Source: Candidatus Woesearchaeota archaeon
GTDB lineage: Archaea > Nanobdellota > Nanobdellia > Pacearchaeales > GW2011-AR1
DNA: 64,000 nucleotides
Direction: 5' to 3'
Assembly (NCBI GenBank): GCA_964344105.1
Contig: CAYFMD010000003.1
Location: forward strand, 8,066-72,065
Positions within the stretch are counted from its first letter, which is position 1. Each line of letters starts with the position of its first letter. The translations under genes and the position numbers were made by a program. Shown in pieces: positions 1-53,066 of the stretch. Below the pieces are notes generated by a model. That model ran no database searches. It was not told the DNA's origin and worked only from the letters and a program-made list of their open reading frames with translations.

Positions 1-1520
1 TCATCATCTTTTGTGAAGGTTATTACTGCTTCCCCTTCAATTCCAGGAACCTCTACATTTAGAGGATATTTTTTGTCTAAGAACATTGCTATTGATCCTG
101 GTTGTATTGTAGAGAATATTTCTTTCTTTGTTTCATAGCCTTCTGCTCTTGCTATTACATAACCGTTTCCACATTGAGGGAATGTTTCTGTTAGTGTTGC
201 ATCGCCAGATTCTATTCTGGTTGTTCCTATCCTACAAACTTCGTCGAAGCATTTGTATTCTATTTGTGCTTCAACAGGTTCGAAGTTAGTGTTGAAGGTT
301 GATACTGAGATTTCTGTGTTCTTGTATCTGCATAGTTCGCTTGCTGTGTTTGCTATGTTAGATCCAGGTATTGGTTCTCTTGGTCTGTTTTTGTTTATGT
401 AGACAACAACAGGGAATTGGAAAACTCCGTCTGGAGTGTGCATTTGTATTAGGACTGGATATGCTAGGTCGTAGACAAAATGATATGGAACGTAACAGAA
501 TCCTAATAGCCCTAATCCTTCTTGAGTTCCTATAGGATCTGCGATTAATAGTCCTCCATCGTTTGGCCAGACTTCCATTTTTGTAGGCCAGTTCCTAGAG
601 AAGTGGAAATTTACCGGGACATCTACATTTTGTCCTATGTCATGGATGAAATATTCATTTTCTTGTTTGCTTAGATCGTAGTAGTCTCCTTTTATTTTTG
701 TGAAAGGTACGTTGGCTTCTAATGCCATTGTTAGATTTGCCCTTACTTCTTCTACATTCCATATTGATGGGCTGCATTGTATTTCTACTCCATCTACCGG
801 AGCGTATAGTCTTAGTATATCTACCCCATAATTTTCTAGGAACATTGATTCCTTGAAATCGTTATAGATATCTAGAGCTAGTTCGTGGAATTTTCCTAAG
901 CTAGATTGTACGTCGTTTGAATGACTCTTTCCTGTCCAAGATTGCTCGCCTCTTTTAATTTCAATTGAATGTGAGACATCAACATCAATTCTGTTTTCTC
1001 TTATGTTTGTTTCTACTTCTATCTCTCTTCCTACTGCTATTTCGAATCCTTCATTTGCAAATCTTGAGAAGTCACATTGTAATATTCTTTGTTCTAGGAA
1101 TTTATCTAATTCCTCCTCCATTGTATCTGTTGTTGGAACTTGTTCTTTTACAAGGTTATTTCCAGAAATGTAATACCAATAAGGTATTGGAATTCCTACA
1201 AAGTCTAGATAGTTAGAGAATGGCATATGTTCTGAACCTGGGTTGAAATCTGGGCCTTCGATGTATCCTCCCTGTTGACCTAATATGTTGGCTGCTATTT
1301 GTGTTTCTAATTCAATACAGCCTAAGTAATATTGATAGACTGGTTCTAGCTCTCCTGGAGGTCCTCCGAAAGATAGATTGCCTCTAAATACGAAGAATAA
1401 GACTATGATTCCTACAATTACTATTGCTAGAATAATGAATACTGTGGCTTGCGCCTTTTTATCACGCTCTTTAGGGATCATTCTTTCTCTTGTATAATCT
1501 TTTATGTTATTTAAACCCAT
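1..1520 (-). CDS. secreted pilin-like protein with N-terminal class III (prepilin-type) signal peptide. The start codon is at 1518-1520 (or an internal ATG at 1479-1481) and the C-terminus runs off the window edge. It is a paralog of the 29401, 36623 and 37622 genes.
   Basis: Reverse-complement translation from the ATG at 1520 gives MGLNNIKDYTRERMIPKERDKKAQATVFIILAIVIVGIIVLFFVF...LGQQGGYIEGP...PIPYWYY. A basic stretch is followed by A|Q and a long hydrophobic helix, with the same QGGY and aromatic motifs as the other paralogs. The reading frame stays open to position 1 and is absent from the ORF track only because it has no in-window stop. Confidence 0.5.
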   Translation of the reverse strand, partial: MGLNNIKDYTRERMIPKERDKKAQATVFIILAIVIVGIIVLFFVFRGNLSFGGPPGELEPVYQYYLGCIELETQIAANILGQQGGYIEGPDFNPGSEHMPFSNYLDFVGIPIPYWYYISGNNLVKEQVPTTDTMEEELDKFLEQRILQCDFSRFANEGFEIAVGREIEVETNIRENRIDVDVSHSIEIKRGEQSWTGKSHSNDVQSSLGKFHELALDIYNDFKESMFLENYGVDILRLYAPVDGVEIQCSPSIWNVEEVRANLTMALEANVPFTKIKGDYYDLSKQENEYFIHDIGQNVDVPVNFHFSRNWPTKMEVWPNDGGLLIADPIGTQEGLGLLGFCYVPYHFVYDLAYPVLIQMHTPDGVFQFPVVVYINKNRPREPIPGSNIANTASELCRYKNTEISVSTFNTNFEPVEAQIEYKCFDEVCRIGTTRIESGDATLTETFPQCGNGYVIARAEGYETKKEIFSTIQPGSIAMFLDKKYPLNVEVPGIEGEAVITFTKDD

Positions 1521-18538: not shown

Positions 18539-18539
18539 T

Positions 18540-22190: not shown

Positions 22191-23389
22191 TTTTCCTTGA
22201 TTCCTAGGATGCTTAACATGAATGAAGAGAATATTGTTTGGACTCCTAATGTTATTAGGGTTAATGCTAGAATAGAATTTTTTATCTGATCTAATTCTCC
22301 AAAGTTTGAATTTATCCAGTCGTTTAATATTTTTATGAAGATTATTAGGCCTGAAATAATTATTAGTATTCCTAAGATACTCGCTTTTTCTATCGTTATG
22401 TGTTTGTATAGATTTTCTATTCTTTTATTCGATTCTCCTAGGTGTGTTATTGCATAAGTTTTTGCAAATATTGAGAAGAAGATTAGTTGATAGCCTATTA
22501 TGGTTAGTAATGAGGATATAAACATTGGATGGATGTAGAACGTCGTTCCAAATAATACTGGATTTTTTGTGTAGAGTAATGTTAGCGTAAGAATTCCTAG
22601 AAGAAAAATTATTAATCCCGGAATGAAGAATAAGAATAATGGTGAGTATAATAGCATGAACCTTAGATGGCGCCAACCGTCCGCTATTGTGTTGAGTTTT
22701 GATTCTCCTAATCTTTTTTTGTAGTTTATTGGTAGTTCTTTTATTTGGAGATTGTTCTTTAGAGCTTTGATTACCATCTCTGAAGCAAATTCCATTCCAG
22801 TAGTCTTTAGATTTAGTTTTTTTAGAGCCTCTGTTCTTATTGCCCTCATTCCACAATGAGAGTCTCTTACAGTTGTTTTGTAGAATAATCTAAGTAGTCC
22901 TGAAAGTAATGGATTTCCTATGTATTTGTGTGTGGATGGCATTACATCTTTTTCTAGTGGGTATGCAAATCTATTTCCTATTACAAAGTCATTATTTTCC
23001 TTTAATTTGTTTAGAAAATTTGGAATTTCTGAGAAATCGTAAGTTCCATCACAATCTGCCATGAAGATGTAGTTAGTTGTAACGTGTTTGAATCCCTCTA
23101 GGTACGCGTTTCCATACCCTTCCTTGTTATGTTTAGCAATCTTTATTTTTAGTTTGTTAGGATTGTTTGTTACAAACTCTTTTATCTTATTTATTGTTTG
23201 ATCTGATGAGGAGTCTGAAATGATTACTTCAGCACCTATTTGATTTATTTCTAGGGTATTTGAGATTTCCTTTAGACAATGTTGAATGGCCTCTTGCTCG
23301 TTTCTACAGGGGAGGATAATTGATAATTCTGGCTCCTTTGGAGTGGTTAGAATGTTAGAGATGAGCCTATTTGCATCAATGTTTTCCAT
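22187..23389 (-). CDS. GT2 dolichyl-phosphate hexose synthase-like glycosyltransferase with C-terminal TM domain
   Basis: It contains LSIILPCRNEQEAI...ADCDGTYD...HCGMRAIR plus four C-terminal TM helices, matching the DPM1/AglJ/ArnC-like architecture. Confidence 0.7.
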   Translation of the reverse strand: MENIDANRLISNILTTPKEPELSIILPCRNEQEAIQHCLKEISNTLEINQIGAEVIISDSSSDQTINKIKEFVTNNPNKLKIKIAKHNKEGYGNAYLEGFKHVTTNYIFMADCDGTYDFSEIPNFLNKLKENNDFVIGNRFAYPLEKDVMPSTHKYIGNPLLSGLLRLFYKTTVRDSHCGMRAIRTEALKKLNLKTTGMEFASEMVIKALKNNLQIKELPINYKKRLGESKLNTIADGWRHLRFMLLYSPLFLFFIPGLIIFLLGILTLTLLYTKNPVLFGTTFYIHPMFISSLLTIIGYQLIFFSIFAKTYAITHLGESNKRIENLYKHITIEKASILGILIIISGLIIFIKILNDWINSNFGELDQIKNSILALTLITLGVQTIFSSFMLSILGIKEK

Positions 23390-25483: not shown

Positions 25484-25485
25484 AC

Positions 25486-28157: not shown

Positions 28158-29381
28158 TTAAGAAAACATTTCAAGTCTTTCTGTATTGATTATTAGTCTT
28201 GCATAATCTCCTGCTGAGGCTCCTGGATTTGATGTTCTGTCTGTATGGAAGAATGTTCCATCCTCACTTCTTATGAATCCTTTTGAGTTTGGATCGCTAG
28301 CTACTATGAAGCTATCTTGAGGTGCTAGTTTGTTTGATAGTTTGTTAACATCTATATCTAAGTTTTCTAGTAATGGTGCTGCATCTATTCTTTGATTGTG
28401 GACTCTTGTTTTTATTCCAACTTCTAGTACTAGTTCTTGACCTCCAGCATTATAGTTATCTAGATCAATGTGAGGTATGGTTCTTATGTTGTTTCCACTT
28501 TTGTCAATATCATTTCCATTAAGGTGCATGTGTTGCCCTGTTCCTTGTTGTGCTGAAACGAATGTTCTTGATAGGTGGTTTATTATTATATCTGCTAGTG
28601 GGAATGATAGTCCTGTAAGTACTCCATTACTTGTTAATGGATTAACTACAATGTTTGTTGCAATGTCTTTTGGCGTTTGGATTGATATAATTGGTTCATT
28701 GTTTTGATAGTATGTTGTGGCTGCATTTAATTGAGTGGTGTCTGCTAGTCCATCATTGAAATCTATTGATGCAAATCCTTCTTGGCTGTTTGTTGATTCA
28801 ACTCTTTCTTGATTTGTTCCTTCTAAATTTACTGTTTGTCCTCTAAGTCTTCCTATATTTCCATTTGCTAAGACTTCTAGTTCTCTTGCGCCAGTTCCTG
28901 TATCCACTGGCTGGCTTCCATCTGCGAAAGGACTTGAGCTAACCGCTGGAGCCCCGTCTCCTGTTTGATCCTCTGGAGCTAAGACTGCGAAGTTTTGTAA
29001 AAATCCAGAGATTGCTGGGAATACACTTAGAAGATAGCTTCCTGGATCTCCTCCACCTCCTCCTTGAGGGAATGCTCCTGGTGGGGCTGTTAGGCCTCCT
29101 GCTGGACCTCCACCATATGTCGTTCCTTGAGGAGATAAACTCACTTGAGGGAATGCTCCTGCTTGGTGGCTTGCAGAGAGTCTTGTTTGTCCTGATGGAT
29201 CAACCAAGTCTCCATTTGGACTTAGTGTATAGTCGGGGGTGGCTCCTTGGAGGCTATCTAGGTTCCAAAAGGTTGGTTCGCAATAAGTACACCCTGCTTG
29301 GAAGGCAATTACAAAATTTATTGAGATTAAAATTATTGAGATTAATAATCCTTTCTTCATCATTATTTTATTATTTTTCAT
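28158..29381 (-). CDS. secreted G/P-rich protein (407 aa)
   Basis: It has an N-terminal signal peptide MKNNKIMMKKGLLISIILISINFVIAF, followed by a G/P/Q-rich low-complexity region. Confidence 0.45.
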   Translation of the reverse strand: MKNNKIMMKKGLLISIILISINFVIAFQAGCTYCEPTFWNLDSLQGATPDYTLSPNGDLVDPSGQTRLSASHQAGAFPQVSLSPQGTTYGGGPAGGLTAPPGAFPQGGGGGDPGSYLLSVFPAISGFLQNFAVLAPEDQTGDGAPAVSSSPFADGSQPVDTGTGARELEVLANGNIGRLRGQTVNLEGTNQERVESTNSQEGFASIDFNDGLADTTQLNAATTYYQNNEPIISIQTPKDIATNIVVNPLTSNGVLTGLSFPLADIIINHLSRTFVSAQQGTGQHMHLNGNDIDKSGNNIRTIPHIDLDNYNAGGQELVLEVGIKTRVHNQRIDAAPLLENLDIDVNKLSNKLAPQDSFIVASDPNSKGFIRSEDGTFFHTDRTSNPGASAGDYARLIINTERLEMFS

Positions 29382-29400
29382 TTTATATCTATTATCATGT

Positions 29401-30156
29401 TTAATATCTATTTAGGAATTCGAAGACATATGGTTGTTCCATTGTTCGATTTTCTAAGATCATGACTAATGTGGTATCTTCTTCGAAGGCTATGAAATCT
29501 ACGTATAGTTGTCTATCTCTGGCTAGTTCAGTTATACAGTTTATGCAAATTAGGTTTGGATTTTCCTTATGAGAATCTGTTATGAAAGTTGCTACTTCTA
29601 TGATCTCTTCTAATGAGGAGTTAAGGGTTACAGGATGTTGATTTAGGTTGAAGTTTACTGTGTTTCCATTGCTTTCTATTATTACAGGTAATTCTGTTTC
29701 AAAAGTTAGTGATGTTGATTTTATTTTTGCCTTAGTTTGTGATGGCTCGTATTTTAGTTCTAGATTTTGAAAGTCTATTTGTGATATGCATTTTTCTAGG
29801 TTGGTATCTACATAACTGGCTAGCTCATTTTCTATTGTTTCTTTGAATGGTTGAGTGATAATTCCTTGATCGTAGTAGTATGGAACGAAGGCCCATTGCA
29901 TGTCTAAATGGTTTGTTGGTCTGTTAAAATATCCTCCTTGAATTCCGATTCTAATTAATGCATCTTTTGAGTTTTCTTCTAGACAATCTCTTATGAAATT
30001 TTGTACATTGTTAACTGATGGTTGAAGTCCTTGCTGATCAAAGTATTCTTTGCCTCTGTCTTCTGTTGTATTTCTTACAAAGAAAAATAGAACTATCCCT
30101 ATTACTATCACAATAGCTAATATGATTAGAACTGTTGTCTGTCCTCTTTTTTGCAT
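29401..30156 (-). CDS. pilin-like protein with class III signal peptide (paralog family member)
   Basis: It begins MQKRGQTTVLIILAIVIVIGIVLFFF and carries GIQGGY, PYYYDQ and C..C/CxxC motifs shared with 37622-38383. Confidence 0.55.
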   Translation of the reverse strand: MQKRGQTTVLIILAIVIVIGIVLFFFVRNTTEDRGKEYFDQQGLQPSVNNVQNFIRDCLEENSKDALIRIGIQGGYFNRPTNHLDMQWAFVPYYYDQGIITQPFKETIENELASYVDTNLEKCISQIDFQNLELKYEPSQTKAKIKSTSLTFETELPVIIESNGNTVNFNLNQHPVTLNSSLEEIIEVATFITDSHKENPNLICINCITELARDRQLYVDFIAFEEDTTLVMILENRTMEQPYVFEFLNRY

Positions 30157-30190
30157 GGTTAGATAAATAGATTGAGGTATTTAAGAGTTA

Positions 30191-31267
30191 TTAGTAGGTG
30201 TTTTCTTTTAGTCTCTGTTCGAATTTTGGAGAATAAATAAACTCTCCAACCCTTTTATCAATTTCTGGTTTCCATCTTTGCATTAGTGCAGGTCCGTTAT
30301 CACCAAATGCAGTTTCTAAGTCCTCTTGGCCCTCTGAAGTGTACCTTCTCCAATTTGAGTGATCAAATGATGTCCAGTGTTTTAATGTGTAATCAGTTAC
30401 TGTTCTTTGTGCTTGTTGTAAACTTATTCTGGAACCTTTTCCATCCAAAAGGAATCTTCCTGCTTTCCTAGCGTCATGGAAGTAAAATGCTTCATCTTCA
30501 TTGTTTGGTGCCCATAGCATTCTATATGATTCAATTTCTAGGGTGGTTTCTGCGAATTTTATTGGTATTGGCGTTTTTCCTTCTCGGGGAATCTCTATGT
30601 AGAAAGGGATGGTTTGGATTGGGTATCCTGATGAGGAATATATGTCAAATTCTGCATTTTCTCTGAATCTTTCATAGAAGAACATCATTAATTGATCCAT
30701 TGACATGGGATTAACAACATTCATTGGATGAGTTGGTAGGCCTTTATTATATTCTTGCCTTAATTCTTCAAGTAAATCTACTTCTGTAAATCCGGAAACA
30801 ATAACTTCATTTTCAAGAACGCTTGCTGACTGAGGAGTTCTTATTCCATTTCTTAGAACTATGTCTACCTTTCCAGTTTCTTCGTTAGGTACTAGTGCAT
30901 AATAAGGAATTTGGACATCTCTACCTGAAGTGAATAAATTATAACCTGCTTTTGCATCATCGCTTAGATTTTCTACAGCTTTTTTTGCTCCTACCGATCT
31001 TATATCAATTATCTTTTCTCTTACATCATCTGTGTAACTAAAATCTTCTGGTGTTATCCAGTATCTGAATGGGTCTACTGCTGGGGCTGTGGCTTTTGGT
31101 GTTGCCACAGTTGGTTTTTCATCTGGTTTTTCGGTTGGCGCTGGTTCGGAGTATTCAATTGGTGGAGCGACCGGAACTGGCGGGACTTTTGGTTTATCTT
31201 GTTCACATCCAATTGTGAAAGGTAGTAGAATTAGGGATGTTGCTAATATTCTTTGTACTAAATTCAT
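30191..31267 (-). CDS. secreted lipoprotein-like protein (358 aa)
   Basis: A signal peptide precedes a lipobox-like LPFTIGC, followed by a Pro-rich linker. Confidence 0.4.
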   Translation of the reverse strand: MNLVQRILATSLILLPFTIGCEQDKPKVPPVPVAPPIEYSEPAPTEKPDEKPTVATPKATAPAVDPFRYWITPEDFSYTDDVREKIIDIRSVGAKKAVENLSDDAKAGYNLFTSGRDVQIPYYALVPNEETGKVDIVLRNGIRTPQSASVLENEVIVSGFTEVDLLEELRQEYNKGLPTHPMNVVNPMSMDQLMMFFYERFRENAEFDIYSSSGYPIQTIPFYIEIPREGKTPIPIKFAETTLEIESYRMLWAPNNEDEAFYFHDARKAGRFLLDGKGSRISLQQAQRTVTDYTLKHWTSFDHSNWRRYTSEGQEDLETAFGDNGPALMQRWKPEIDKRVGEFIYSPKFEQRLKENTY

Positions 31268-31299
31268 AGAAATTAGAAAGATGGGAGATATTTAAGGTT

Positions 31300-33027
31300 T
31301 TATTTAGACTTTGCAACTATTTCTACTAGTTCAGATAGGCCTCTTGGGAACTCATCTAGATTTCCGTAAGCGCTTTGTTGATATTTATGTAGATAGCTTC
31401 CAGGTATTGTTATTGGTGAAACTCTTAATTCAGTGCTTGTTCCAGTTTCTCCCTTGTCCTTATAAGTTATCCTTCCAAATGATTTTTGACCTCCATCGTC
31501 AAAAGTCACAGTTGTTTGTACAGAGCCAACTATCATTGGACCTCTACTGAATATTTCTCTTTTTATAGTATCCACTTTATCTAATTCAGCCCCTCTTACT
31601 CCTCCTGATTCTAATCCTGTCCTTAATTCTGCAAATGTATCTGATGCTTCATCTTCAGTTATTGCTCTTTGGTAGGTGGTTTCTTCTAATAATTGTGAAA
31701 AGTGGTTGAATCCGTTTCTTCTAATTTGGTCTTCAGTCCATCCATTTGATCTAGCTATTTCTACAAAAGCATCTACTTCGCTTTGTAATGCATAAACTCT
31801 GGTGTCAGAAATGTGTACACCTAACCCTTCTCCTATCGGATTTGCATTACTTATTCCAAATCCAAATCTTGAACAGAAGGATCCTATACATACCCTATTA
31901 CTTTTATCAAATTCTACAAAGGTGGGTCCATTAGGAGTTGAAACTAATTTTCCGTTTGAAAATTTTGGAGGATTCAATTCATTAAATACAATTGTATTCC
32001 CTTTTGGGATTCTTGGATAATTAACACTTCCATCAAAGATGGTTATTTTATCATTACCATTTTTGATTCTAATGTTTTTACCATCTGCTATTGTAGTTAT
32101 TTTTTTTATTTTTGGTCCTTGGTCTAGTAAATCTATTTCAATATCATTTCCTTTTATTCTTAGGTTCTTGGTGTCTTCTTCTACACCCACTAATTGTATG
32201 TATTGTTCTGTTGTTGGTTTTTTTCTATTGAATAAAATTTCTGTCTCTTGATCTGAATTTATTCTTATCTCTGCAGCATTTGTTGTTAGTCTGATGCCTT
32301 TTCCTTTAAATTGTCCCCCCACAGGATCAATTGAGAAAGAAGATTCAGTGTCTGTGCTTGTGTCGAGTCTTTCAAATGATCTATCTCCTACACTAACTTG
32401 CGATCCTCCAATTAGTGAAAATTTTCCATCTTTGCTAATTGAGATAGATCCTTTGTTTGGCTTAAGTTGTATTGCCCCATTATCTTCTGTACTTGAAGGT
32501 ATTTGGCCTGATGTGTATCTTAAATCTTCGTCAACTTGACCTGTTGCATAATCTATAGTTGAGCTATCTTCTAATTCTAATTTTATTCCTTCTCCTTCAG
32601 TATAAGTCACTTCAGTTGTAGATTTTGGCAGATCATCTAGTTTGATCGTTATTGATCCATCACTTAGTGTATTTCTATCTATAAATTCTAATTTTGAACT
32701 CTCAAAACCAGAGAATCTCATTTCATTTACTTGTGAGTTTATTGATGCAACCTTTCCAAAATCAAAAAGGCTTAATCCCTCAGCCTTTCTTTTTTTAAGG
32801 GCATGTTTTGCTATTCCTGAGAATACTTGTCCTCTGTTTATTGATGGGTCTTCTAGAATTCTTTTTTGTTCACTTAAGGGTAATGTAGATACAGTTTCCC
32901 AGTCTCCAGAATCAATTGATTGTTGTATAAGCTCCTGAAGCTCTGTATCTGACATTTGTGTGAGGGATAGTGGTAGAACTAATATTATTCCTAGAATAAT
33001 TAGTAAATAGATATTTGTAAGTTTCAT
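31300..33027 (-). CDS. secreted protein (575 aa)
   Basis: It has an N-terminal signal/anchor MKLTNIYLLIILGIILVLPLSL. Confidence 0.45.
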   Translation of the reverse strand: MKLTNIYLLIILGIILVLPLSLTQMSDTELQELIQQSIDSGDWETVSTLPLSEQKRILEDPSINRGQVFSGIAKHALKKRKAEGLSLFDFGKVASINSQVNEMRFSGFESSKLEFIDRNTLSDGSITIKLDDLPKSTTEVTYTEGEGIKLELEDSSTIDYATGQVDEDLRYTSGQIPSSTEDNGAIQLKPNKGSISISKDGKFSLIGGSQVSVGDRSFERLDTSTDTESSFSIDPVGGQFKGKGIRLTTNAAEIRINSDQETEILFNRKKPTTEQYIQLVGVEEDTKNLRIKGNDIEIDLLDQGPKIKKITTIADGKNIRIKNGNDKITIFDGSVNYPRIPKGNTIVFNELNPPKFSNGKLVSTPNGPTFVEFDKSNRVCIGSFCSRFGFGISNANPIGEGLGVHISDTRVYALQSEVDAFVEIARSNGWTEDQIRRNGFNHFSQLLEETTYQRAITEDEASDTFAELRTGLESGGVRGAELDKVDTIKREIFSRGPMIVGSVQTTVTFDDGGQKSFGRITYKDKGETGTSTELRVSPITIPGSYLHKYQQSAYGNLDEFPRGLSELVEIVAKSK

Positions 33028-33132
33028 TCTCTTTTTATTTAAGAGTTAATTATGTGTTATAAAGATATCTTTGTTATTTATAACTATTATTAAGTAACAA
33101 CAAAAGGAAAGGTTTAAATAGTAGTTTTACAC

Positions 33133-33846
33133 ATGAATAATATGAGAAAAGCGATGAATGGATTAATGACAGGTGGTTTGGCATTGGTATTAGGCTATGC
33201 CGGATCTGGACTTGATACTCCTAGCTATGCACAGGATGCTCCTGAAGATGATAGAATAGCTCAGTCTGAAGGTAGATTGGAAAGTAGATTAGTTGATGTA
33301 GATAGTAAGTTAAGATATGATGTTTTTGATAGAATTTATGATGGGGAGACTATTGCTAAATATGCGAAGGTTAGTGATGAAGCTTTAGCTAGAGAATATG
33401 GTGATGGATATGTTGCTGAGGTTGGGAGGGTTAAGAAAGCTAGAGGATTTGCTATTGGTTATGGTGAAGCTTTAGAAGATGCTTTTGATAATCCTGAAGC
33501 AGTTATTTCTGCAATGGATGATTCGGATAGGGAACTATATGGGGAATTTGATGCTACTGAGACTTTGAAGAAACAAGGTAAAGATTCTAATTTTAGAGAA
33601 ATGTTGGGAGTTGCTGATAGTTATGAGTTCTCTGCTGATAGGGAATCTGATAAGTTAGCTGCATTTGTTGCAAAGTATGTTGCTGATGATATGGATGCTT
33701 ATGTTACAACTTCTTTAGGTGTTGCTAAGGTAGTCTTGGCTGCTGGCGATCCTTCATTATTGAAAGATGTTAGAGCTTCTAAGGTAGATCCAGAATCTGA
33801 AAGGTTTAGTAGAGCTACTAAGACACTTAGAAGAATTTTTAAGTAA
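33133..33846 (+). CDS. secreted protein (237 aa)
   Basis: It has a signal peptide ...GLALVLGYAGSG. It is convergent with the 928-aa gene. Confidence 0.4.
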   Translation: MNNMRKAMNGLMTGGLALVLGYAGSGLDTPSYAQDAPEDDRIAQSEGRLESRLVDVDSKLRYDVFDRIYDGETIAKYAKVSDEALAREYGDGYVAEVGRVKKARGFAIGYGEALEDAFDNPEAVISAMDDSDRELYGEFDATETLKKQGKDSNFREMLGVADSYEFSADRESDKLAAFVAKYVADDMDAYVTTSLGVAKVVLAAGDPSLLKDVRASKVDPESERFSRATKTLRRIFK

Positions 33847-36633
33847 TTATCTTACTAGTCCTTTTTTTCTGTCTCTTTTGTATCTCATCTGGCCTGTTCT
33901 ACCGAAGTATCTTGGTGAGTTCTTTTGGTATCTATATTGGGTTGTTTGAGTGGGAGTGTCTCTTCTTGTTGTGGGTGTTTGAGTAATTTGAGTGTTTTGA
34001 GGGGTTGAGGGATTTACGATTCTTTGTATGTATCTTGGATCATTTACAGTTCCTTGTATTGTTGGATCTATCCCACTAGTTGTGGCTACAACATTCCAAG
34101 TTCCTGGATGGAATACTCTTGATCCTGAAGTGTCATAAACTCTATTTGTAGAAGGACCTCCTAGGCTATCTAATATACTAGGCATTGCAGTGTGTACTAT
34201 TGGTGCTAGGTCTGGATTGATGATATGTGTCTGTCCGTTAACTGTTAGTTGGTATAGTCCAGATCCTCCCTCGTAACTTATGGTTCTTAGATCTCCTCCG
34301 TAAGAAGTTATTGAATTTCTTAGGAATTGAACAGCTCGATCTGCTTCTCTTACTGCACTGTCTCTAACTTCTAAGATTGATTGGCCCCTATTCAGTAATC
34401 CTGAAACGCTTCTTGTTAATTCAGAAGTTCCTGGAGATGCTATAGCTCCTGCACCTATGTCTACCATGTTTCCAATTATTTCTTCAGTTGCTTTTCCAGG
34501 GGTTCCTGATATGTCTATCGGTTTTCCTATTGTAGATTGTAACCTTTCCGATAAACTATCTAGTGCAGGAAGGCCCTCATAATAAATTTTACTTGCCTTC
34601 TTTCCTGCTGCTTCTTGCCCTACCCTTCCTGAAGATGAATAGGTAGTTAGATCAATGTCAATTGCATAATCTGAATCTGCAAGTCTTGCGTAGAATTTGG
34701 CTTTGTCATCTGGATCTCCTGAGTTATATAGTTTTAATAATTCACCATGCTCTACTCTTTCAACTTGGGTATTTACAGTCCCAACACTGTATTGGGTTCC
34801 TCCTTCAAATAGGTTTGCGAAAAATCCATCTTCTCTAGAAACTTGCCCAAATAATCCTGTTCCTCCAAATGTTACGGTATCAGATCCAGTCCTAGTTATT
34901 CTGGGAGCTCCGTAATTGTTTGAGGATATGCTGAACTGGTTTCCCCCATTGTCTGAGGTTATTGATCCTATGCTGTAAAAATTTCCAAAGTTAGTTGTTG
35001 ATGCAGTTTTTTTGTCTATAGAAACTCCTGCTGGAGATCCTCTGATTATTATTTCATCTCCATTGTATACTTTCCCTCCATTTATTCTTAGTTCTCCAAT
35101 ATTTCCATTTAGTTCTGCTTGCATGAAGCCTTGTTGGTATCTTCCTTTTTGTAATGTTGAAGAACTTATTCTATCTGTTAATGAATTTACTTGTCCTGCT
35201 AGTTGTGTACTTAACTCAGAAGTTATTTTTCCTTGTTCTGTTATTTGTGATATTGTTCCTCCTATTTGTTCTATCTCTTGAGATGATATTGCTGATGATA
35301 ATGCAGAATAAAGCTCGCTTTCAGGTGCTATTTGTAATTGTTCCTGTAATAAGCTTTCAATTAAGGGAGATGCAGTGCTCGCTAGTTGAAATCCTTCTAA
35401 GACTGAGAGTTCTGATTTATCTTTTTCAAGTAATGGTATTACTTGCTTGTAGCGGTCTACTTTTTGTTTTAATCCCTCTACACTATCTATTGCAGTTTTA
35501 GCAGCATCTGTTTCTAAGTCTCCTTGCAAGATATCAACAATTCCTCTAGCATTATCAAAAGTTCCTCTTTCAACACTTGATTCGAAAGTTTGTAAGATAT
35601 CATCATAAAGACTTCTTCCTTTTTGGTTCATAAATAGGAATCCTTTCTTTCCATCTTTTCCTATAAAATCAGGGTCGTATACTAGAATGTTTTCATCTCC
35701 CAAATCTCCTATTGCTTTTTCAAAAGTATCTCTTGATGAGAAGAATTTTGTATCTTCTCCAGTGAAGAATTGATGTTTATCTCTTTCTAGGTAAGCATGT
35801 GATAATGTGTCTATTTTTCCATCTTCATTGAAAGTTACTGTTGCAGGTTTGCTTTCTCCTTCTCTTTGATATGTACTTAACTTTGTTCCATCAGGTGATG
35901 CAAATCTTGACGCTGTTTCTGGATCTTCAGTAGCTAGTGATATTTTTGTTTTTTCAGAAGTTGAATCTATTGTTATATCTCCTCTTCCGTTCCATTTTCC
36001 AGACATTGGATCATCATAATCTGGTACCCTTTCTTCATTTAGCCTTACAAATTGATTTGTATCTGGGTCGAAGAAATACCCTCTTTGATTATCGGCTACA
36101 TTTAAGGTTACTGAACCATCTTTTTTCTTCATAATTAGTGAATGGCCATTCTCTGTTTTTTCATAAGTGACTTCAGTTATTGGGTTATCTGGGTTTTGTT
36201 GATTGTACAATTCTATATCGCTTCCTCTGAAATATGTTTTTGAATTCCCGAAAACACTTCCACTTCCAGGTCTTGTATTCTCATCGAATCCGGTCATTTT
36301 TACATTTCCATATTCTTCTCCATATTTTTTCATGAATTCAGATCTTTTTTCTGGATCTAAGTGTTCCCAAACTGATTGTTTTTTTGATTGGGTTGATTCA
36401 GCCTCCCAGTTTCTCCAGAAGTCTCCATTAATTTCATCTATTAGTGATTGTTGTTGTTCAGGCGTTAGTCTTTCAATATTGTCTGTTAGGATTGAAAGAT
36501 CATGGGTGTCTCTAAATCTATCAAGCTCTGTTTGAAATTGTTCATCTGTTAGTGGGTTTTCTTGTGATAAAACTAGGCTTATGGATAGAATGAATAGTAT
36601 GCTGATTACAGGTAGTATTTTTTTATAGTTCAT
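33847..36633 (-). CDS. large secreted protein (928 aa) with basic C-terminal tail
   Basis: It has a signal peptide MNYKKILPVISILFILSISLVLSQ. It overlaps the upstream pilin-like gene by 11 nt. It ends RYKRDRKKGLVR. Confidence 0.5.
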   Translation of the reverse strand: MNYKKILPVISILFILSISLVLSQENPLTDEQFQTELDRFRDTHDLSILTDNIERLTPEQQQSLIDEINGDFWRNWEAESTQSKKQSVWEHLDPEKRSEFMKKYGEEYGNVKMTGFDENTRPGSGSVFGNSKTYFRGSDIELYNQQNPDNPITEVTYEKTENGHSLIMKKKDGSVTLNVADNQRGYFFDPDTNQFVRLNEERVPDYDDPMSGKWNGRGDITIDSTSEKTKISLATEDPETASRFASPDGTKLSTYQREGESKPATVTFNEDGKIDTLSHAYLERDKHQFFTGEDTKFFSSRDTFEKAIGDLGDENILVYDPDFIGKDGKKGFLFMNQKGRSLYDDILQTFESSVERGTFDNARGIVDILQGDLETDAAKTAIDSVEGLKQKVDRYKQVIPLLEKDKSELSVLEGFQLASTASPLIESLLQEQLQIAPESELYSALSSAISSQEIEQIGGTISQITEQGKITSELSTQLAGQVNSLTDRISSSTLQKGRYQQGFMQAELNGNIGELRINGGKVYNGDEIIIRGSPAGVSIDKKTASTTNFGNFYSIGSITSDNGGNQFSISSNNYGAPRITRTGSDTVTFGGTGLFGQVSREDGFFANLFEGGTQYSVGTVNTQVERVEHGELLKLYNSGDPDDKAKFYARLADSDYAIDIDLTTYSSSGRVGQEAAGKKASKIYYEGLPALDSLSERLQSTIGKPIDISGTPGKATEEIIGNMVDIGAGAIASPGTSELTRSVSGLLNRGQSILEVRDSAVREADRAVQFLRNSITSYGGDLRTISYEGGSGLYQLTVNGQTHIINPDLAPIVHTAMPSILDSLGGPSTNRVYDTSGSRVFHPGTWNVVATTSGIDPTIQGTVNDPRYIQRIVNPSTPQNTQITQTPTTRRDTPTQTTQYRYQKNSPRYFGRTGQMRYKRDRKKGLVR

Positions 36634-37453
36634 TTGGTGGAAGTGTTATATCTTTAATTGAAGATTCAGATTCCGGAGATGGGATGAATATTACTTCATT
36701 TGTTCTATCTAAGCTAGCCTCTCTTACTTCTAAGAAGTTGAATGATCTAGGATAGGTGTCTGTTTTTTTAGATGATATTATTATGCTGATTATTTCTTCG
36801 TCGAAATTACTTATTTCAAAGTTTACATCATAAAGATCGGTTATATCTGATAAACAGTCAAGACAAACGGCATTTTGATTACTTATTAAGTATAGTTCTG
36901 ATGCTGAAATTAGATCATTTAGTTGAGAATCAATTTTATCATCACTTAGTTTTATGGTTGTTGAATCTTCTGCTTTTGAAATTGATAATGTTGTTGCTTG
37001 TTCTATGTATACAGAGTCTTGTTCAATATAAGGTAGTGAGTATATTTCTATCGCCTCTATGGTGTAATCGGGGAATCTTCCTCTAGTTTCACTTATGCAT
37101 ATTTGTGTATTTTCATCAATTATTAGCCCAAGATCAAGTTCAGTCACTTCTCTATTTGGAATCACTACATTATCATTGTACCTATATATTGGCATAAACA
37201 AGCCTACGTCACTTAGGTATGGCACGTGAGGTTCTTTTGAATATCCTCCTTGAGCTGAAACAAATTCTATTGAGTCTATGTATACTTGATTCATGCATTC
37301 TTCTGTGAATTGTTTAATGTTTTCAGACTCTTTATCAAATTCAGTTGAACCTAAATTACCATTATTTCCTAGTGTGAAAAATAGAATTATTGCTACTAGT
37401 GCTATGACTATTGCTAGGATTATAAGAATGGTAACTTGCCCCTTTTTCTTCAT
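36623..37453 (-). CDS. pilin-like protein with class III signal peptide (paralog family member)
   Basis: It begins MKKKGQVTILIILAIVIALVAIILFF and contains AQGGY and CLDCL motifs. Confidence 0.5.
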   Translation of the reverse strand: MKKKGQVTILIILAIVIALVAIILFFTLGNNGNLGSTEFDKESENIKQFTEECMNQVYIDSIEFVSAQGGYSKEPHVPYLSDVGLFMPIYRYNDNVVIPNREVTELDLGLIIDENTQICISETRGRFPDYTIEAIEIYSLPYIEQDSVYIEQATTLSISKAEDSTTIKLSDDKIDSQLNDLISASELYLISNQNAVCLDCLSDITDLYDVNFEISNFDEEIISIIISSKKTDTYPRSFNFLEVREASLDRTNEVIFIPSPESESSIKDITLPPNEL

Positions 37454-37496
37454 GTTTATTATTAGTTTAGAACGTATTTAAGGGTTTAGTGATCTT

Positions 37497-37625
37497 AATT
37501 TTTCACTAACATCCTTTTAACCCTTCTCACAATCTCACTTACAAGCCTTAACCCTCCCACCCACCCTAAGTAGTGAAAGTGAGAATGTTCGACCACCCTC
37601 TATTAAGAGGATGGTGAAAAATTAG
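37497..37625 (-). repeat. conserved ~125-bp intergenic element, copy A (leader/promoter of pilin-like gene 36623-37453)
   Basis: It is about 88% identical to 52938-53066. Both copies share ctaagtagtgaaagtgaga and a C-tract ccctcccacccaccc, which on the minus-strand sense reads GGGTGGGTGGGAGGG. Confidence 0.6.
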
Positions 37626-38383
37626 TATTTGTTTAGAAATTGAAAGACGTAGGGATCTTGGTCTTCGAATGATTTTGATATAACTACTAATGTACTTGTG
37701 TCTTCTTCAGACTCTAAAAAATCAACAAAAAGATTTTTTCCATCAGCCATTTCTGCTACACAACTTACGCATAGGTTTTCTGGATCTTCCCTATGTGTTT
37801 CTGCAATGAATGTAGCTATTTCTATTGCATCGTTTAATGGACTAGGTATTTCTACTGGGTGATTTTCCAAAGTTAGAGTTTCAGTTAGACCTTCTTTAGA
37901 TATTTGGATATTTAGATTTGTATTAAATTCAATTGATCCCTGATTTATTTTTGCAGTTGATTGCGAATTCTTATATTCTAAAGATAGTTCGCTGTTTCTT
38001 ATTTGACTTAAACAGAAATCTATATTGTCATCAAGGTAGTTTGCTAGTTCAGATTCTATCCTTTGATTTGATGGTTGAAGGATTGTTGGTTGATCGTAGT
38101 AGTATGGTATGAATGCTATTCCTATATCTTCTACTTTTGCTGGTTGATTGTAGTAGCCTCCCTGAATTCCTATTACTATGTTAGCATCTTCTGCTATGGT
38201 CTTTAAGCATTCTAATATTGATGATTGGACAACTGTTGCTTGAGATGTTGCTCCAATTTTTGAGAAAGCATTTTCAATATTTGATGATGAAGACTCATTG
38301 TTCAGGAAAGAGAAGATTAGGATTCCTACGATTACAACTACTGCTAGAATTATTAGAATTGTAACTTGTGCTCTTTTTTGCAT
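37622..38383 (-). CDS. pilin-like protein with class III signal peptide (paralog family member)
   Basis: It begins MQKRAQVTILIILAVVVIVGILIF and contains GIQGGYYNQP, PYYYDQ, CLSQI and CVSCV. Confidence 0.55.
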   Translation of the reverse strand: MQKRAQVTILIILAVVVIVGILIFSFLNNESSSSNIENAFSKIGATSQATVVQSSILECLKTIAEDANIVIGIQGGYYNQPAKVEDIGIAFIPYYYDQPTILQPSNQRIESELANYLDDNIDFCLSQIRNSELSLEYKNSQSTAKINQGSIEFNTNLNIQISKEGLTETLTLENHPVEIPSPLNDAIEIATFIAETHREDPENLCVSCVAEMADGKNLFVDFLESEEDTSTLVVISKSFEDQDPYVFQFLNKY

Positions 38384-52354: not shown

Positions 52355-52861
52355 TTAAGCGACGGCAGTATCTGCTACACCGCAAAGCTTGTTAGTTTCT
52401 CCAACGATAGCAGCTATTTCTACAACCTTATTTCCTACAAGATCGGCAGTAATTTCTAGAGTTTCTAGCTCGTTAAGTGAAGATGCATCTACAGAATCTG
52501 CAACAACTTCTCCATCAGAAAGTACGCTTATTGCTCTTAAGTCTCCTCCGCCAGGGGTTCTCTTAACTAAAACTCCTGCATCAGTCCATACTCTCTCTAT
52601 AGGATCTGTGTCTATGTCACCGTCATGATCCCACAAACCATTACATGTTTGCTCATTTCCAGCAACATCATTACATGAAACGAATCTTAACTTCTCGATT
52701 TCCAAACCTACTGTGAAACAGTCGCTTTGGCCTCCGATTTCATCGGCTCCTTGTTGAACAGTTCCTTGTACAACTTGCCAAACAATTACTATAGCAGCTA
52801 AAACCAACAAGATTATCAACACTGTTGTGATAATTTGTGATTGTGCTTTTTTATTAAACAT
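52355..52861 (-). CDS. small secreted protein with class III (prepilin-like) signal peptide, Cys/Asp-rich globular part
   Basis: It begins MFNKKAQSQIITTVLIILLVLAAIVIVW. An AGGAGGT SD lies 12 nt upstream. It is preceded by copy B of the conserved element. Confidence 0.5.
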   Translation of the reverse strand: MFNKKAQSQIITTVLIILLVLAAIVIVWQVVQGTVQQGADEIGGQSDCFTVGLEIEKLRFVSCNDVAGNEQTCNGLWDHDGDIDTDPIERVWTDAGVLVKRTPGGGDLRAISVLSDGEVVADSVDASSLNELETLEITADLVGNKVVEIAAIVGETNKLCGVADTAVA

Positions 52862-52937
52862 AATGTCATACCTCCTTTCATGCCTCTTTTATCGTATAAT
52901 GAGTATGGTTTTTTAGTATATAAAGATTCTCTTCGTT

Positions 52938-53066
52938 GATTTTTCAATCATATCCCTTTAACCCTTCTCGCAATCTCGCTTACAAATCTTAACTCTCCCG
53001 CCCACCCTAAGTAGTGAAAGTGAGATTACTCGCCCACCCTCCCTTAAGAAGGTGATTAAAAAATCA
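52938..53066 (-). repeat. conserved ~125-bp intergenic element, copy B (leader/promoter of 52355-52861, containing the stop codon of gltX)
   Basis: It aligns to 37497-37625. The shared core is ccaccctaagtagtgaaagtgaga. Its G-tracts on the sense strand are GGGAGGGTGGG and GGGTGGGCGGG. Confidence 0.6.

What the first reader, a model, noticed from the sequence alone, without database searches (positions are those of the whole stretch)
28158..38383. Minus-strand island of large secreted proteins interleaved with pilin-like (class III signal) paralogs: candidate cell-surface/attachment apparatus
About 10 kb of the minus strand is tightly packed (gaps of 20-35 bp and an 11-nt overlap at 36623-36633) with genes for signal-peptide proteins of 237, 358 (lipobox-like), 407, 575 and 928 aa, none with a recognisable domain. 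Three ~250-aa paralogs carrying prepilin-like N-termini are interleaved among them. The order along the minus strand is pilin-C | conserved element | pilin-B, overlapping the 928-aa gene; then 575 aa, 358-aa lipoprotein, pilin-A and the 407-aa G/P-rich protein. Pairing a minor-pilin-like subunit with a giant secreted protein recalls the tip-adhesin arrangement of type IV pilus systems. Here, though, no assembly ATPase, platform protein or prepilin peptidase lies within the window. For a reduced-genome, presumably host-attached archaeon, this is the most plausible place for a host-interaction organelle. I cannot assign any of the large proteins to a known family from sequence.
Basis: partly seen in the sequence, partly recalled or inferred. 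Interest (0 to 1): 0.8.

Follow-up and report, generated by a model that had tools for sequence, protein, structure and literature searches.

The report
Pilin-like adaptors paired with large surface proteins
A small symbiont-type (DPANN) archaeon carries repeated gene pairs, each a pilin-like membrane protein of an unknown fold followed by a large, fast-evolving secreted protein, which most likely decorate a type IV pilus or the cell surface for attachment, though this rests on genomics alone.

Summary
The ORFs, spacings, 11-nt overlap and three ~250-aa paralogs are real. One error: the 237-aa gene is on the plus strand. The organism is an archaeon, and all relatives of the island are Pacearchaeota/Woesearchaeota MAGs.

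The paralogs ("PIL") form a domain-less family. It has a conserved [KR][GAS]-Q class III-type site ahead of a ~21-residue hydrophobic helix. A confident model of the head matches no solved structure, pilins included.

Across 29 loci, 29 of 48 PIL genes are directly followed by a large protein with a hydrophobic N-terminus (background 21%; p≈2e-9). p407, p575 and p928 share modules. pilB, p928 and p237 diverge much faster than housekeeping genes.

- a fourth PIL (635 aa) fused operonically to a 2,161-aa secreted giant at the window's left edge;
- a canonical small type IV pilin at 52355-52861, which passes the TIGR02537 cutoff;
- one relative (L019) where a T2SSE ATPase, two T2SSF platform genes, this small pilin and PIL/p928/p575 genes lie within 20 kb on one strand.

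Verdict: the pilus-linked surface-display reading is partly supported. No assembly machinery is in the window, the large proteins' folds are unresolved, and a plain membrane-anchor model remains a serious rival. This is a new variant of a known kind.

The parts
28158..29381 (-). p407: secreted G/P-rich protein, the cognate downstream partner of PIL-A. It has a variable N-terminal part, a Gly-rich linker and a conserved ~125-aa C-terminal module.
   Evidence: ORF. The family of 21 members almost always lies directly after an A-type PIL. The C-terminal module recurs inside many other PIL partners. No Pfam, NCBIfam or PDB hit.
29401..30156 (-). PIL-A: 251-aa pilin-like protein with a class III-type N-terminus (MQKRG|QTTVLIILAIVIVIGIVLFFFV) and an alpha/beta head of unknown fold.
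   Evidence: AF2 model pLDDT 88.3. No structural match. 73% identical to its L005 orthologue, similar to housekeeping genes.
30191..31267 (-). p358: predicted lipoprotein (lipobox FTIG|C) with a Pro-rich linker. It is lineage-restricted.
   Evidence: Only two clusters at 50% identity were found among 1.84 billion representatives. The lipobox Cys is kept in P0070. It is absent from L005.
31300..33027 (-). p575: Sec-signal secreted protein. Its N-terminal ~250 aa are homologous to the N-terminus of p928, and residues ~284-402 are homologous to the p407 C-terminal module.
   Evidence: hhalign gave 94.6% (E 7e-8) against p928 and 90.6% (E 1.3e-6) against p407. In L007 two p575-like genes follow a PIL gene.
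33133..33846 (+). p237: small protein with a hydrophobic N-terminus, on the opposite strand and convergent with p928. Its position is conserved in the closest relative (L005/L006); L007 has an opposite-strand gene with a similar N-terminus in the same place.
   Evidence: It is 53% identical to the L005 orthologue.
33847..36633 (-). p928: large Sec-signal secreted protein with a beta-rich N-terminal module, a long helical middle, a mixed C-terminal part and a basic tail. It is the cognate partner of PIL-B and evolves fast.
   Evidence: All five family members are preceded by a divergent 274-284-aa PIL, overlapping or within 1 nt. It is 40% identical to the L005 orthologue, against 84-88% for gyrase. 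The AF2 model is unusable.
36623..37453 (-). PIL-B: 276-aa divergent pilin-like paralog (MKKKG|QVTILIILAIVIALVAIILFF) with a C-terminal extension. It overlaps p928 by 11 nt.
   Evidence: It co-diverges with p928: 41% versus 40% identity to the L005 orthologues.
37495..37621 (-). Copy 1 of a 127-nt structured intergenic repeat, directly after the pilC stop. It contains a T-run plus hairpin and GGGTGGGTGGGAGGG at 37552-37566.
   Evidence: (z = -5.1). No credible Rfam match; the only hit is far below its family threshold. It is absent from relatives: L005 has a 31-nt gap at this position.
37622..38383 (-). PIL-C: 253-aa pilin-like paralog (MQKRA|QVTILIILAVVVIVGILIFSF).
   Evidence: It is 75% identical to the L005 orthologue.
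1..1520 (-). PIL-L: fourth, long paralog (635 aa in full, cut by the window edge) with a 22-residue leader and a KKA|QATVFIILAIVIV site. Just outside the window it overlaps by 4 nt a 2,161-aa secreted giant protein.
   Evidence: No Pfam or NCBIfam hits for either protein.
52355..52861 (-). SP: canonical small (168 aa) archaeal type IV pilin, MFNKKA|QSQIITTVLIILLVLAAIVIVW. It is the candidate major subunit of the filament.
   Evidence: TIGR02537 arch_flag_Nterm scored 20.5 bits against a cutoff of 20. There are 55 relatives with near-identical N-termini and variable leaders. A homologue lies about 1.2 kb downstream of the T2SSE/T2SSF genes in L019, and another is next to a T2SSE-like ATPase in L085.
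52936..53062 (-). Copy 2 of the 127-nt repeat, directly after the GluRS stop and about 75 nt upstream of the small pilin gene.
   Evidence: 83% identity to copy 1.

Best explanation
**What it is.** The island is part of a lineage-specific (Pacearchaeota/Woesearchaeota) surface-display system built from cassettes.

**Cassette layout.** Each cassette encodes a PIL protein followed by a cognate large secreted protein.
- The PIL protein has a class III-type signal, a ~21-residue hydrophobic helix, a flexible linker and a ~200-aa disulfide-containing head of a new fold.
- The partner has a Sec signal, a mosaic of shared modules and a variable remainder.

**Proposed mechanism (inferred).**
- A prepilin peptidase cuts the PILs before the conserved Gln.
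- The PIL helix lets them be taken up, as minor or adaptor subunits, into a type IV pilus-like filament. Its bulk subunit is the small pilin at 52355-52861. Its ATPase and two platform proteins are encoded elsewhere in the genome.
- The PIL head holds the partner protein, possibly through the shared ~125-aa module. In this way rapidly diversifying adhesins or effectors are displayed away from the cell.

**Shown versus inferred.**
- Shown: the gene pairing, the conserved cleavage-type motif, the module sharing, the unequal evolutionary rates, the canonical pilin, and the linkage to machinery in one relative.
- Inferred: processing, incorporation into a filament, PIL-partner binding and the attachment function.
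For: - **Class III-type site.** It is conserved across 34 family members despite leaders of about 4 to 60 residues, and Q+1 is nearly invariant. All four window paralogs pass a FlaFind-type scan.
- **Pairing.** 29 of 48 PIL genes are followed on the same strand, within 200 nt and often overlapping, by a protein of at least 390 aa with a hydrophobic N-terminus. The background for genes of that size is 21%, giving binomial p = 2.4e-9. Many exceptions are toxin-antitoxin insertions or PIL-PIL-big arrangements.
- **Cognate pairs are stable.** A-type PILs go with p407. All five p928-family genes follow a divergent 274-284-aa PIL. PIL-L pairs with the 2,161-aa giant.
- **Co-divergence.** pilB and p928 are 41% and 40% identical to their L005 orthologues, against 84-88% for gyrase.
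- **Shared modules among partners**.
- **A canonical pilin is in the window**, and it has 55 relatives.
- **Linkage to machinery.** L019 carries T2SSE, two T2SSF genes, the small pilin, PIL, PIL-p928, a 1028-aa protein and a p575-like gene on one strand within 20 kb.
- **Literature.** Archaeal pilus systems with stand-alone pilin genes and large predicted adhesins next to minor pilins are an accepted model (PMC4858521; bioRxiv 10.64898/2026.04.22.720090).
Against: - No ATPase, platform or peptidase gene is in the 64-kb window or in the extra 7.4 kb fetched to its left.
- Only 1 of 29 PIL loci has machinery within the stretch fetched.
- PILs do not hit TIGR02537, PF07790 or PF04021.
- The model shows a low-confidence linker (residues 28-47) between the hydrophobic helix and the head. 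A classical pilin has a continuous alpha-1 helix.
- pilA and pilC are conserved while p407 is almost unrecognisable outside its C-terminal module. Co-evolution is therefore clear only for pilB/p928.
- There is no direct evidence of binding, cleavage or filaments.
Confidence: 0.5

Rival explanations
1. Membrane-anchor or chaperone model. PILs are bitopic membrane proteins, processed or not, that stay in the cytoplasmic membrane. They tether or help fold their cognate secreted partner at the cell surface and are never built into a filament. This is analogous to the anchor/canopy pairing SlaB/SlaA, or to class III-signal binding proteins of the Sulfolobus bindosome, whose filament has never been seen.
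For: - The head is not a pilin fold and is separated from the helix by a flexible linker.
- PILs fail the curated pilin N-terminal models.
- Cassettes are almost never next to assembly genes.
- The partners lack any membrane anchor of their own.
- Class III-signal proteins that are not classical pilins are widespread in archaea (10.64898/2026.04.22.720090).
Against: - A plain signal anchor gives no reason for a nearly invariant [KR][GAS]-Q directly before the helix across variable leaders.
- The same K-[AG]-Q site and a similar mature N-terminus occur in the canonical small pilin of the same genome.
- L019 links the families to a pilus operon.
Confidence: 0.3
2. Envelope-structure model. The large proteins, especially the conserved p407 family that sits next to gyrase genes, are S-layer or cell-wall building blocks. 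The PILs are their assembly or anchoring factors, and there is no role in host contact.
For: - The PIL-A/p407 pair is the most conserved and is syntenic with gyrA/gyrB in many genomes.
- A glycosyltransferase cluster lies next to the island.
- The proteins have Gly-rich linkers and Cys-rich secreted domains.
Against: - There are several different, fast-diverging and partly strain-specific partners per genome.
- Some relatives' partners carry trypsin-like protease or thioredoxin domains.
- There is no S-layer domain hit and no C-terminal anchor or PGF-CTERM.
Confidence: 0.12
3. Secretion model. The PILs form a short pseudopilus, as in bacterial type II secretion, that pushes the cognate large proteins through the envelope and releases them as soluble effectors.
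For: - Class III-type subunits are encoded with Sec-dependent cargo.
- Protease and thioredoxin domains occur in some cargo proteins.
- The two-platform T2SSF arrangement in L019.
Against: - No archaeal type II secretion-like export is known (own knowledge).
- One-to-one cognate pairing and pilB/p928 co-divergence fit a stable complex better than a generic piston.
- A 250-aa head on every subunit is unlike pseudopilins.
Confidence: 0.05
4. Foreign or mobile island. The cluster is a provirus, integrated element or recent transfer unrelated to the host's own surface biology.
For: - Many hypothetical genes.
- Toxin-antitoxin modules are inserted in relatives.
- The content is variable between relatives.
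Against: - The position between truB and gyrA is the same in L005, and PIL cassettes lie next to gyrase genes in several other relatives.
- GC content is the same as the flanks.
- pilA and pilC diverge at housekeeping rates.
- No integrase or tRNA border.
- No viral structural match.
Confidence: 0.02

Closest known systems
Bacterial type IVa pilus minor-pilin/PilY1 tip complex (Pseudomonas aeruginosa fimU-pilVWXY1Y2E; Nguyen et al. 2015, cited in PMC4858521)
   Same: - Pilin-like subunits with class III signals are encoded in an operon with a ~1,000-aa non-pilin secreted protein that carries a Sec signal.
- The major pilin is encoded elsewhere.
- The large protein is the variable, surface-interacting part.
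   Different: - There is no sequence or detectable domain relationship: no DUF2341 or PilY1 propeller.
- The pilin-like proteins are ~250 aa with an unrelated alpha/beta head.
- Cassettes come as one adaptor plus one partner, repeated two to four times, rather than a four-minor-pilin set plus one adhesin.
- The host is an archaeon and the site is G/A/S|Q without Glu+5.
Archaeal type IV pilus systems with predicted adhesins (clade 1 / subsystem 4A-B; Makarova, Koonin & Albers 2016, PMC4858521; Sivabalasarma & Albers 2026, bioRxiv 10.64898/2026.04.22.720090)
   Same: - Archaeal loci combine class III-signal proteins with large signal-peptide proteins interpreted as adhesins.
- DPANN members have an ATPase plus two platform proteins, as in L019.
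- Stand-alone pilin genes away from the machinery are common.
   Different: - The adhesins described there are PilY-like (DUF2341) and lie in the machinery locus.
- Here neither PILs nor partners match any described family.
- The cassettes are detached from the machinery in 28 of 29 loci.
- I could not test arCOG membership.
Sulfolobales bindosome (BasEF with class III-signal sugar-binding proteins GlcS, AraS, TreS)
   Same: - The architecture is a class III signal, a hydrophobic helix, a linker and then a functional non-pilin domain.
- The genes lie away from the assembly ATPase and platform.
   Different: - PIL heads are not substrate-binding-protein folds.
- There are no ABC transporter neighbours.
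- PILs are paired with large secreted proteins instead.
Modular type IV pilins of Streptococcus sanguinis (PilB, PilC; PMC8179133)
   Same: A pilin-type N-terminus carries a bulky functional module that is displayed by the pilus and mediates adhesion.
   Different: - In those pilins the adhesive module is fused to the pilin. Here the bulky protein is a separate polypeptide encoded downstream. PIL-L (635 aa) and P0060, which has an extra C-terminal domain, approach the fused design.
- The system is bacterial, with the G|F...E5 signature.
SlaA/SlaB S-layer pair of Sulfolobales and giant SPEARE surface proteins of Nanohaloarchaeota (own knowledge; not tested here)
   Same: - A membrane-anchored small subunit is encoded beside a large unanchored surface protein (Sla).
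- Giant, fast-evolving, domain-poor surface proteins are implicated in DPANN host contact, some with protease domains (SPEARE).
   Different: - SlaB is anchored by a C-terminal helix and has no class III site.
- SPEARE proteins are single giant polypeptides without a pilin-like partner.
- No sequence similarity to either was detected.

Membership tests
Archaeal type IV pilin / class III signal peptide protein (applied to PIL-A, -B, -C, -L) | An N-terminal positively charged leader ending in [KR][GAS], followed by about 20 hydrophobic residues (FlaFind-type site). | tested here: met
   The sites are RG|QTTV, KG|QVTI, RA|QVTI and KA|QATV. The motif is conserved and fixed relative to the helix in 34 family members with leaders of about 4 to 60 residues.
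Archaeal type IV pilin / class III signal peptide protein (applied to PIL-A, -B, -C, -L) | A match to curated N-terminal pilin/archaellin models (TIGR02537 arch_flag_Nterm, PF07790 Pilin_N, PF04021 Class_IIIsignal). | tested here: not met
   No hit at E <= 1 in Pfam or NCBIfam. The best hit was a sub-threshold Flp1_like match (12.3 bits against a cutoff of 33.5).
Archaeal type IV pilin / class III signal peptide protein (applied to PIL-A, -B, -C, -L) | A pilin fold: a long continuous N-terminal helix whose C-terminal half packs on a beta-sheet or Ig-like head. | tested here: not met
Archaeal type IV pilin / class III signal peptide protein (applied to PIL-A, -B, -C, -L) | Cleavage by a PibD/FlaK/EppA-type peptidase and incorporation into a filament. 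| not testable with these tools
   This needs proteomics or biochemistry. No peptidase gene is in the window or the fetched loci.
Archaeal type IV pilin / class III signal peptide protein (applied to PIL-A, -B, -C, -L) | Genomic association with a T2SSE ATPase and T2SSF platform protein. | tested here: inconclusive
   Absent from the window. Present on the same strand, 6 to 8 kb upstream, in L019. Absent from the other 27 relatives' stretches. The rest of this genome could not be searched.
Archaeal type IV pilin (applied to the small protein at 52355-52861) | A curated N-terminal domain model, small size, a class III site and association with machinery. | tested here: met
   TIGR02537 scored 20.5 bits against a cutoff of 20. 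The protein is 168 aa with a KKA|QSQIITTVLIILLVLAA site. It has 55 relatives. Homologues lie near the ATPase in L019 and L085.
PilY1-like pilus tip adhesin (applied to p928, p575, p407 and the 2,161-aa protein) | A PilY1 C-terminal beta-propeller or DUF2341 domain. | tested here: not met
   No Pfam or NCBIfam hits. No PDB sequence hits with family profiles.
PilY1-like pilus tip adhesin (applied to p928, p575, p407 and the 2,161-aa protein) | A non-pilin with a Sec-type signal, encoded in an operon with minor pilins. | tested here: met
   The N-termini are hydrophobic without a conserved class III site. Same-strand adjacency or overlap with PIL genes is shown.
Bindosome-type class III-signal binding proteins | A substrate-binding-protein domain and a neighbouring ABC transporter. 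| tested here: not met
   No SBP domain, no SBP-like structural hit and no ABC transporter genes in the island or in relatives' cassettes.
Archaeal S-layer protein | An S-layer domain family, a C-terminal anchor (TM or PGF-CTERM), and a single dominant conserved gene. | tested here: not met
   No such domains. There is no C-terminal hydrophobic segment in p407, p575 or p928. There are several divergent paralogous partners per genome.

The most novel reading that the evidence does not exclude
PIL proteins are a previously undescribed class of 'adaptor pilins' in DPANN archaea. Each uses a new-fold head to dock one cognate, interchangeable large protein onto a type IV pilus through a shared ~125-aa module. 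The docked proteins would be adhesins, and in some lineages proteases or thioredoxin-domain proteins. This would give genome-reduced symbionts a modular, rapidly diversifying, pilus-displayed arsenal for recognising and attacking host cells.
Probability: 0.25. Interest if true: 0.8.

Novelty: new variant of a known kind. Interest (0 to 1): 0.58.

Why it matters
How Pacearchaeota and Woesearchaeota contact their hosts is unknown, although they are among the most abundant uncultured DPANN archaea.

This locus offers concrete candidates that can be tested:
- a conserved small pilin;
- a new family of class III-signal proteins with a confidently predicted but unmatched fold;
- their cognate, fast-evolving secreted partners, including a 2,161-aa giant.

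If the adaptor-pilin idea holds, it would extend the minor-pilin/tip-adhesin principle to archaea in a new one-adaptor-one-cargo form. It would also point to the molecules that determine host range.

If it fails, the cassettes still define a new two-component way of anchoring surface proteins.

Tried and rejected
- **Homologue searches for the large proteins.** They returned only 3-4 close relatives for p928 and p575 and 2 clusters for p358.
- **afdb50 fold library.** It was not available.
- **Profile searches.** PIL, p407, p575 and p928 profiles against PDB sequences gave only low-complexity or chance hits.
- **Locus search with A2.** The alignment was too diverse, so a narrower one was used.
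- **p928 versus p407 profile comparison.** Only a 24-column helical motif was found, at 44.6% probability. I treat it as not significant.
- **Prepilin-peptidase motif scan.** All 90 fetched stretches gave nothing.
- **Right-hand window edge.** The lookup failed because the product was not on record.
- **Small ORFs in relatives as hidden pilins.** They are a toxin-antitoxin pair (L005) or small membrane proteins (L004).
- **p407's KKG|LLIS as a class III site.** Rejected, because the site is not conserved in the family.
- **Bacterial (CPR) origin.** This was suggested by the bacterial-type DnaG, gyrase and TruB. It is rejected by the archaeal ribosomal proteins, TFIIB, Elp3 and Kae1.
- **Viral or mobile origin.** Rejected on synteny, composition and housekeeping-like divergence of pilA and pilC.
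- **The intergenic 'conserved element'.** It has no credible Rfam match; the only hit, a miRNA model at E 0.38, is far below its threshold. It is not conserved in relatives.

Full report
**Observation.** All eight ORFs exist at the stated coordinates.
- Spacing along the minus strand is 19, 34 and 32 nt. pilB overlaps p928 by 11 nt (36623-36633), and 168 nt separate pilC from pilB.
- The only factual slip concerns the 237-aa gene (33133-33846). It lies on the plus strand, divergent from p575 and ending exactly where p928's stop codon begins. It is real, because a 236-aa orthologue at 53% identity occupies the same place in a relative.
- None of the eight proteins reaches any Pfam or NCBIfam threshold.
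- The three ~250-aa proteins are true paralogs: 46% and 28% identity to pilA, two invariant and two nearly invariant cysteines across the family, and a QGGY motif.

**Organism.** Bacterial-type DnaG primase, gyrase and TruB first suggested a bacterium. Ribosomal proteins S3Ae, L7Ae, S28e and L24e, together with TFIIB, an Elp3-like protein, Kae1 and archaeal PheRS, show an archaeon.
- Every relative of the island found in species-representative genomes is a Pacearchaeota or Woesearchaeota ('Nanoarchaeota') MAG.
- The window is part of an 82.8-kb contig from PRJEB17505.
Host attachment is inferred from what is generally assumed of DPANN archaea, not shown.

**The pilin-like family (PIL).** A search of 5.8 billion proteins found 61 clusters. 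All are from metagenomes or DPANN MAGs, and none has a Pfam domain.
- In a 34-sequence alignment, the motif [KR]-[GAS]-Q-x-[TS]-[IV]-[FL]-I-I-L-A keeps its register with the hydrophobic helix while the upstream leader ranges from about 4 to 60 residues. Gln+1 is nearly invariant.
- That is the behaviour of a processing site, not of a simple signal anchor. All window paralogs pass a FlaFind-type scan.
- Against membership, the PILs do not hit the curated archaeal pilin N-terminal models.
- A confident AlphaFold model (pLDDT 88.3, pTM 0.78) shows a hydrophobic helix, a low-confidence linker at residues 28-47, and an alpha/beta head.
- The PILs therefore work like class III-signal proteins but cannot be filed as pilins by fold.

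**The cassette pattern.** I collected 22 genome loci, several metagenome loci and their ORFs and classified the proteins by local iterative searches.
- A unit of one PIL (~250-320 aa) followed by one large protein with a hydrophobic N-terminus (390-2,161 aa) recurs two to four times per locus.
- Of 48 PIL genes with a downstream neighbour, 29 are followed on the same strand within 200 nt, often overlapping, by such a protein. Genes of at least 390 aa make up 21% of all genes in these stretches, giving p = 2.4e-9.
- Many exceptions are toxin-antitoxin insertions or PIL-PIL-large arrangements.
- Pairs are cognate. A-type PILs precede the p407 family (21 members), usually beside gyrA/gyrB. All five p928-family genes follow a divergent 274-284-aa PIL.

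**A fourth cassette.** In full it is 635 aa, with a 22-residue leader and a KKA|Q site. It overlaps by 4 nt a 2,161-aa secreted, Cys- and Gly/Tyr/Asn-rich giant just outside the window.

**The large proteins.** They have no family or PDB sequence match, but they are related to one another as mosaics.
- The N-terminal ~250 residues of p575 align with the N-terminus of p928 (hhalign 94.6%, E 7e-8).
- p575 residues ~284-402 align with the conserved C-terminal ~125-aa module of p407 (90.6%, E 1.3e-6).
- That module recurs inside at least eight other PIL partners in relatives. This makes it my candidate for a PIL-docking domain, which is an inference.
- In relatives some partners end in a trypsin-like protease (L014, L088) or a thioredoxin domain (L009).
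- p358 is a predicted lipoprotein known from only two 50%-identity clusters.

**Evolutionary rates.** Identity between the window and L005 orthologues:

| Protein | Identity to L005 orthologue |
|---|---|
| GyrB | 88% |
| GyrA | 84% |
| TGT | 82% |
| TruB | 70% |
| pilC | 75% |
| pilA | 73% |
| p237 | 53% |
| pilB | 41% |
| p928 | 40% |
| p407 | 33%, over an 85-aa stretch in its C-terminal domain only |
| p575 | detectable only by profile |
| p358 | absent |

A co-occurring strain with pilA at 90% identity has p928 at 58%. Fast, coordinated divergence of pilB and p928 fits an interacting, exposed pair under diversifying pressure.

**Link to a type IV pilus.** The window has no ATPase, platform or peptidase gene. 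Three results connect the island to such a machine.
- First, the window encodes a canonical small pilin at 52355-52861(-), MFNKKA|QSQIITTVLIILLVLAAIVIVW (168 aa). It reaches the curated cutoff of TIGR02537 (20.5 bits against 20). It has 55 relatives with near-identical N-termini and variable leaders, mostly in the same GluRS-pilin synteny.
- Second, in the Woesearchaeota contig L019 the following all lie on one strand within 20 kb: a T2SSE ATPase (E 2e-35, with a PilB3-like C-terminus), two T2SSF platform genes, a homologue of this small pilin (64% over 55 residues), a PIL, a PIL-p928 pair, a 1,028-aa protein and a p575-like gene. A further small-pilin locus (L085) has the ATPase two genes away.
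- Third, the PILs and the small pilin share the K-[AG]-Q site and a similar mature N-terminus. One peptidase and one platform could plausibly serve both; this is an inference.
- The counterweight is that only 1 of 29 PIL loci shows machinery within the stretch fetched. This is, however, usual for archaeal stand-alone pilin genes (PMC4858521).

**Mechanism, with likelihoods.**
- Most likely (about 0.5): PILs are processed adaptor or minor subunits that enter a pilus built mainly of the small pilin and hold their cognate secreted partners. They would display rapidly diversifying adhesins or effectors.
- Main rival (about 0.3): PILs stay in the membrane and tether or chaperone the partners, as in bindosome-like or SlaB/SlaA-like arrangements.
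- Less likely: an S-layer or envelope role (about 0.12) and pseudopilus-driven secretion (about 0.05).
- Effectively excluded: a mobile or viral island. The evidence is conserved synteny between truB and gyrA, flank-like composition and housekeeping-like divergence of pilA and pilC.

**Comparison with what is known.**
- Functionally, the closest analogue is the bacterial minor-pilin/PilY1 tip complex, together with the archaeal systems with predicted PilY-like adhesins (PMC4858521; bioRxiv 10.64898/2026.04.22.720090).
- Membership is not supported. There is no DUF2341 or PilY1 domain, no pilin fold and no match to curated pilin models.
- The one-adaptor-one-partner cassette repeated several times, detached from the machinery, with a shared partner module and a new adaptor fold, is in my view a new variant of a known kind rather than a new category. 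I found no paper describing this family. That is not proof that none exists.

**The 'conserved element'.** The 168-nt pilC/pilB spacer holds a 127-nt segment (37495-37621) that recurs at 52936-53062 with 83% identity.
- In both places it starts right after a stop codon (pilC; GluRS). In the second place it lies about 75 nt upstream of the small pilin gene.
- It folds well (z = -5.1). It begins with a T-run and a hairpin, and copy 1 carries GGGTGGGTGGGAGGG.
- It has no credible Rfam match and is absent from relatives, where the pilC-pilB gap is 31 nt.
- It may be a terminator or insulator, or a small mobile or regulatory element. Co-regulation of pilB-p928 with the small pilin is possible but unsupported, because the conserved proximal promoter region of the small pilin is not part of the repeat.

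**Limits.** The rest of the genome could not be searched. The folds of the large proteins remain unknown. Cleavage, filament incorporation, PIL-partner binding and host attachment are all inferred.

Noticed in passing
window 47955-49670 (-) and 45812-47962 (-): A bacterial-type DnaG primase (CHC2 zinc finger, DnaG_N, Toprim and DnaB-binding domain) sits in an archaeal genome. Its coding sequence overlaps the start of a 716-aa protein with an RNase H-like/PolB-exonuclease C-terminus. With GyrA/GyrB (23594-28053), this looks like a set of bacterial-type replication genes in a DPANN archaeon.
   Followed up: no
window 37495-37621 and 52936-53062: A two-copy 127-nt structured intergenic repeat (83% identity; the 168-nt pilC/pilB spacer that holds copy 1 folds with z = -5.1). 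Each copy starts directly after a stop codon. Copy 1 holds a perfect G3N1G3N1G3N1G3 motif (37552-37566, minus strand) in a 35% GC genome. It is absent from relatives and has no credible Rfam match.
   Followed up: partly
L031 553-7038 (-), just left of the window: A 2,161-aa secreted protein with long Tyr/Asn/Gln/Gly-rich low-complexity stretches and Cys-rich regions. It has no Pfam or NCBIfam hit and is translationally coupled to the 635-aa PIL paralog.
   Followed up: partly
window 17216-23389 (-) and 13537-14994 (-): A glycosylation cluster lies beside the island: GT2, three GT4-type glycosyltransferases, a sulfotransferase/TylF-methyltransferase fusion, a DUF6056-like membrane protein and a LicD-family protein. 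These may modify the surface proteins.
   Followed up: no
JGI 3300072015 contig of 112.6 kb (no DNA held), genes listed: In a DPANN relative, a PIL cassette lies 3.4 to 10 kb from ParA/MinD-like, CheY-like, CheW, dCache chemoreceptor, hemerythrin and KaiC/ArlH-like ATPase genes. This hints at chemotaxis or an archaellum in a Pace/Woesearchaeote.
   Followed up: no
L004, L009, L011, L019, L088 (relatives): Nucleotidyltransferase/HEPN and RelE-like toxin-antitoxin modules are repeatedly inserted between PIL genes and their partners, or elsewhere inside the pilus-related loci.
   Followed up: no
L007 14737-18534, L010, L012, L088 (relatives): The gyrA and gyrB genes next to the PIL-A/p407 pair carry inteins in several relatives, with products of 1,059-1,297 aa and Intein_splicing and LAGLIDADG hits. 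They carry none in the window.
   Followed up: no
window 43560-43901 (-): A 113-aa membrane protein without any family hit is 96% identical to its L005 orthologue. It is more conserved than every housekeeping gene compared in the region, which range from 68% to 93%.
   Followed up: no
L014 1438-3474, L088 3106-5238, L009 1424-3622: PIL partner proteins in relatives end in a trypsin-like serine protease domain (two loci) or a thioredoxin domain (one locus). Some cassette cargo is therefore enzymatic.
   Followed up: partly
window 28158-29381 versus L001 10794-11999: Gene callers start p407 six codons later (401 aa, MMKKG...). The first 6 codons of the 407-aa ORF may not be translated.
   Followed up: no
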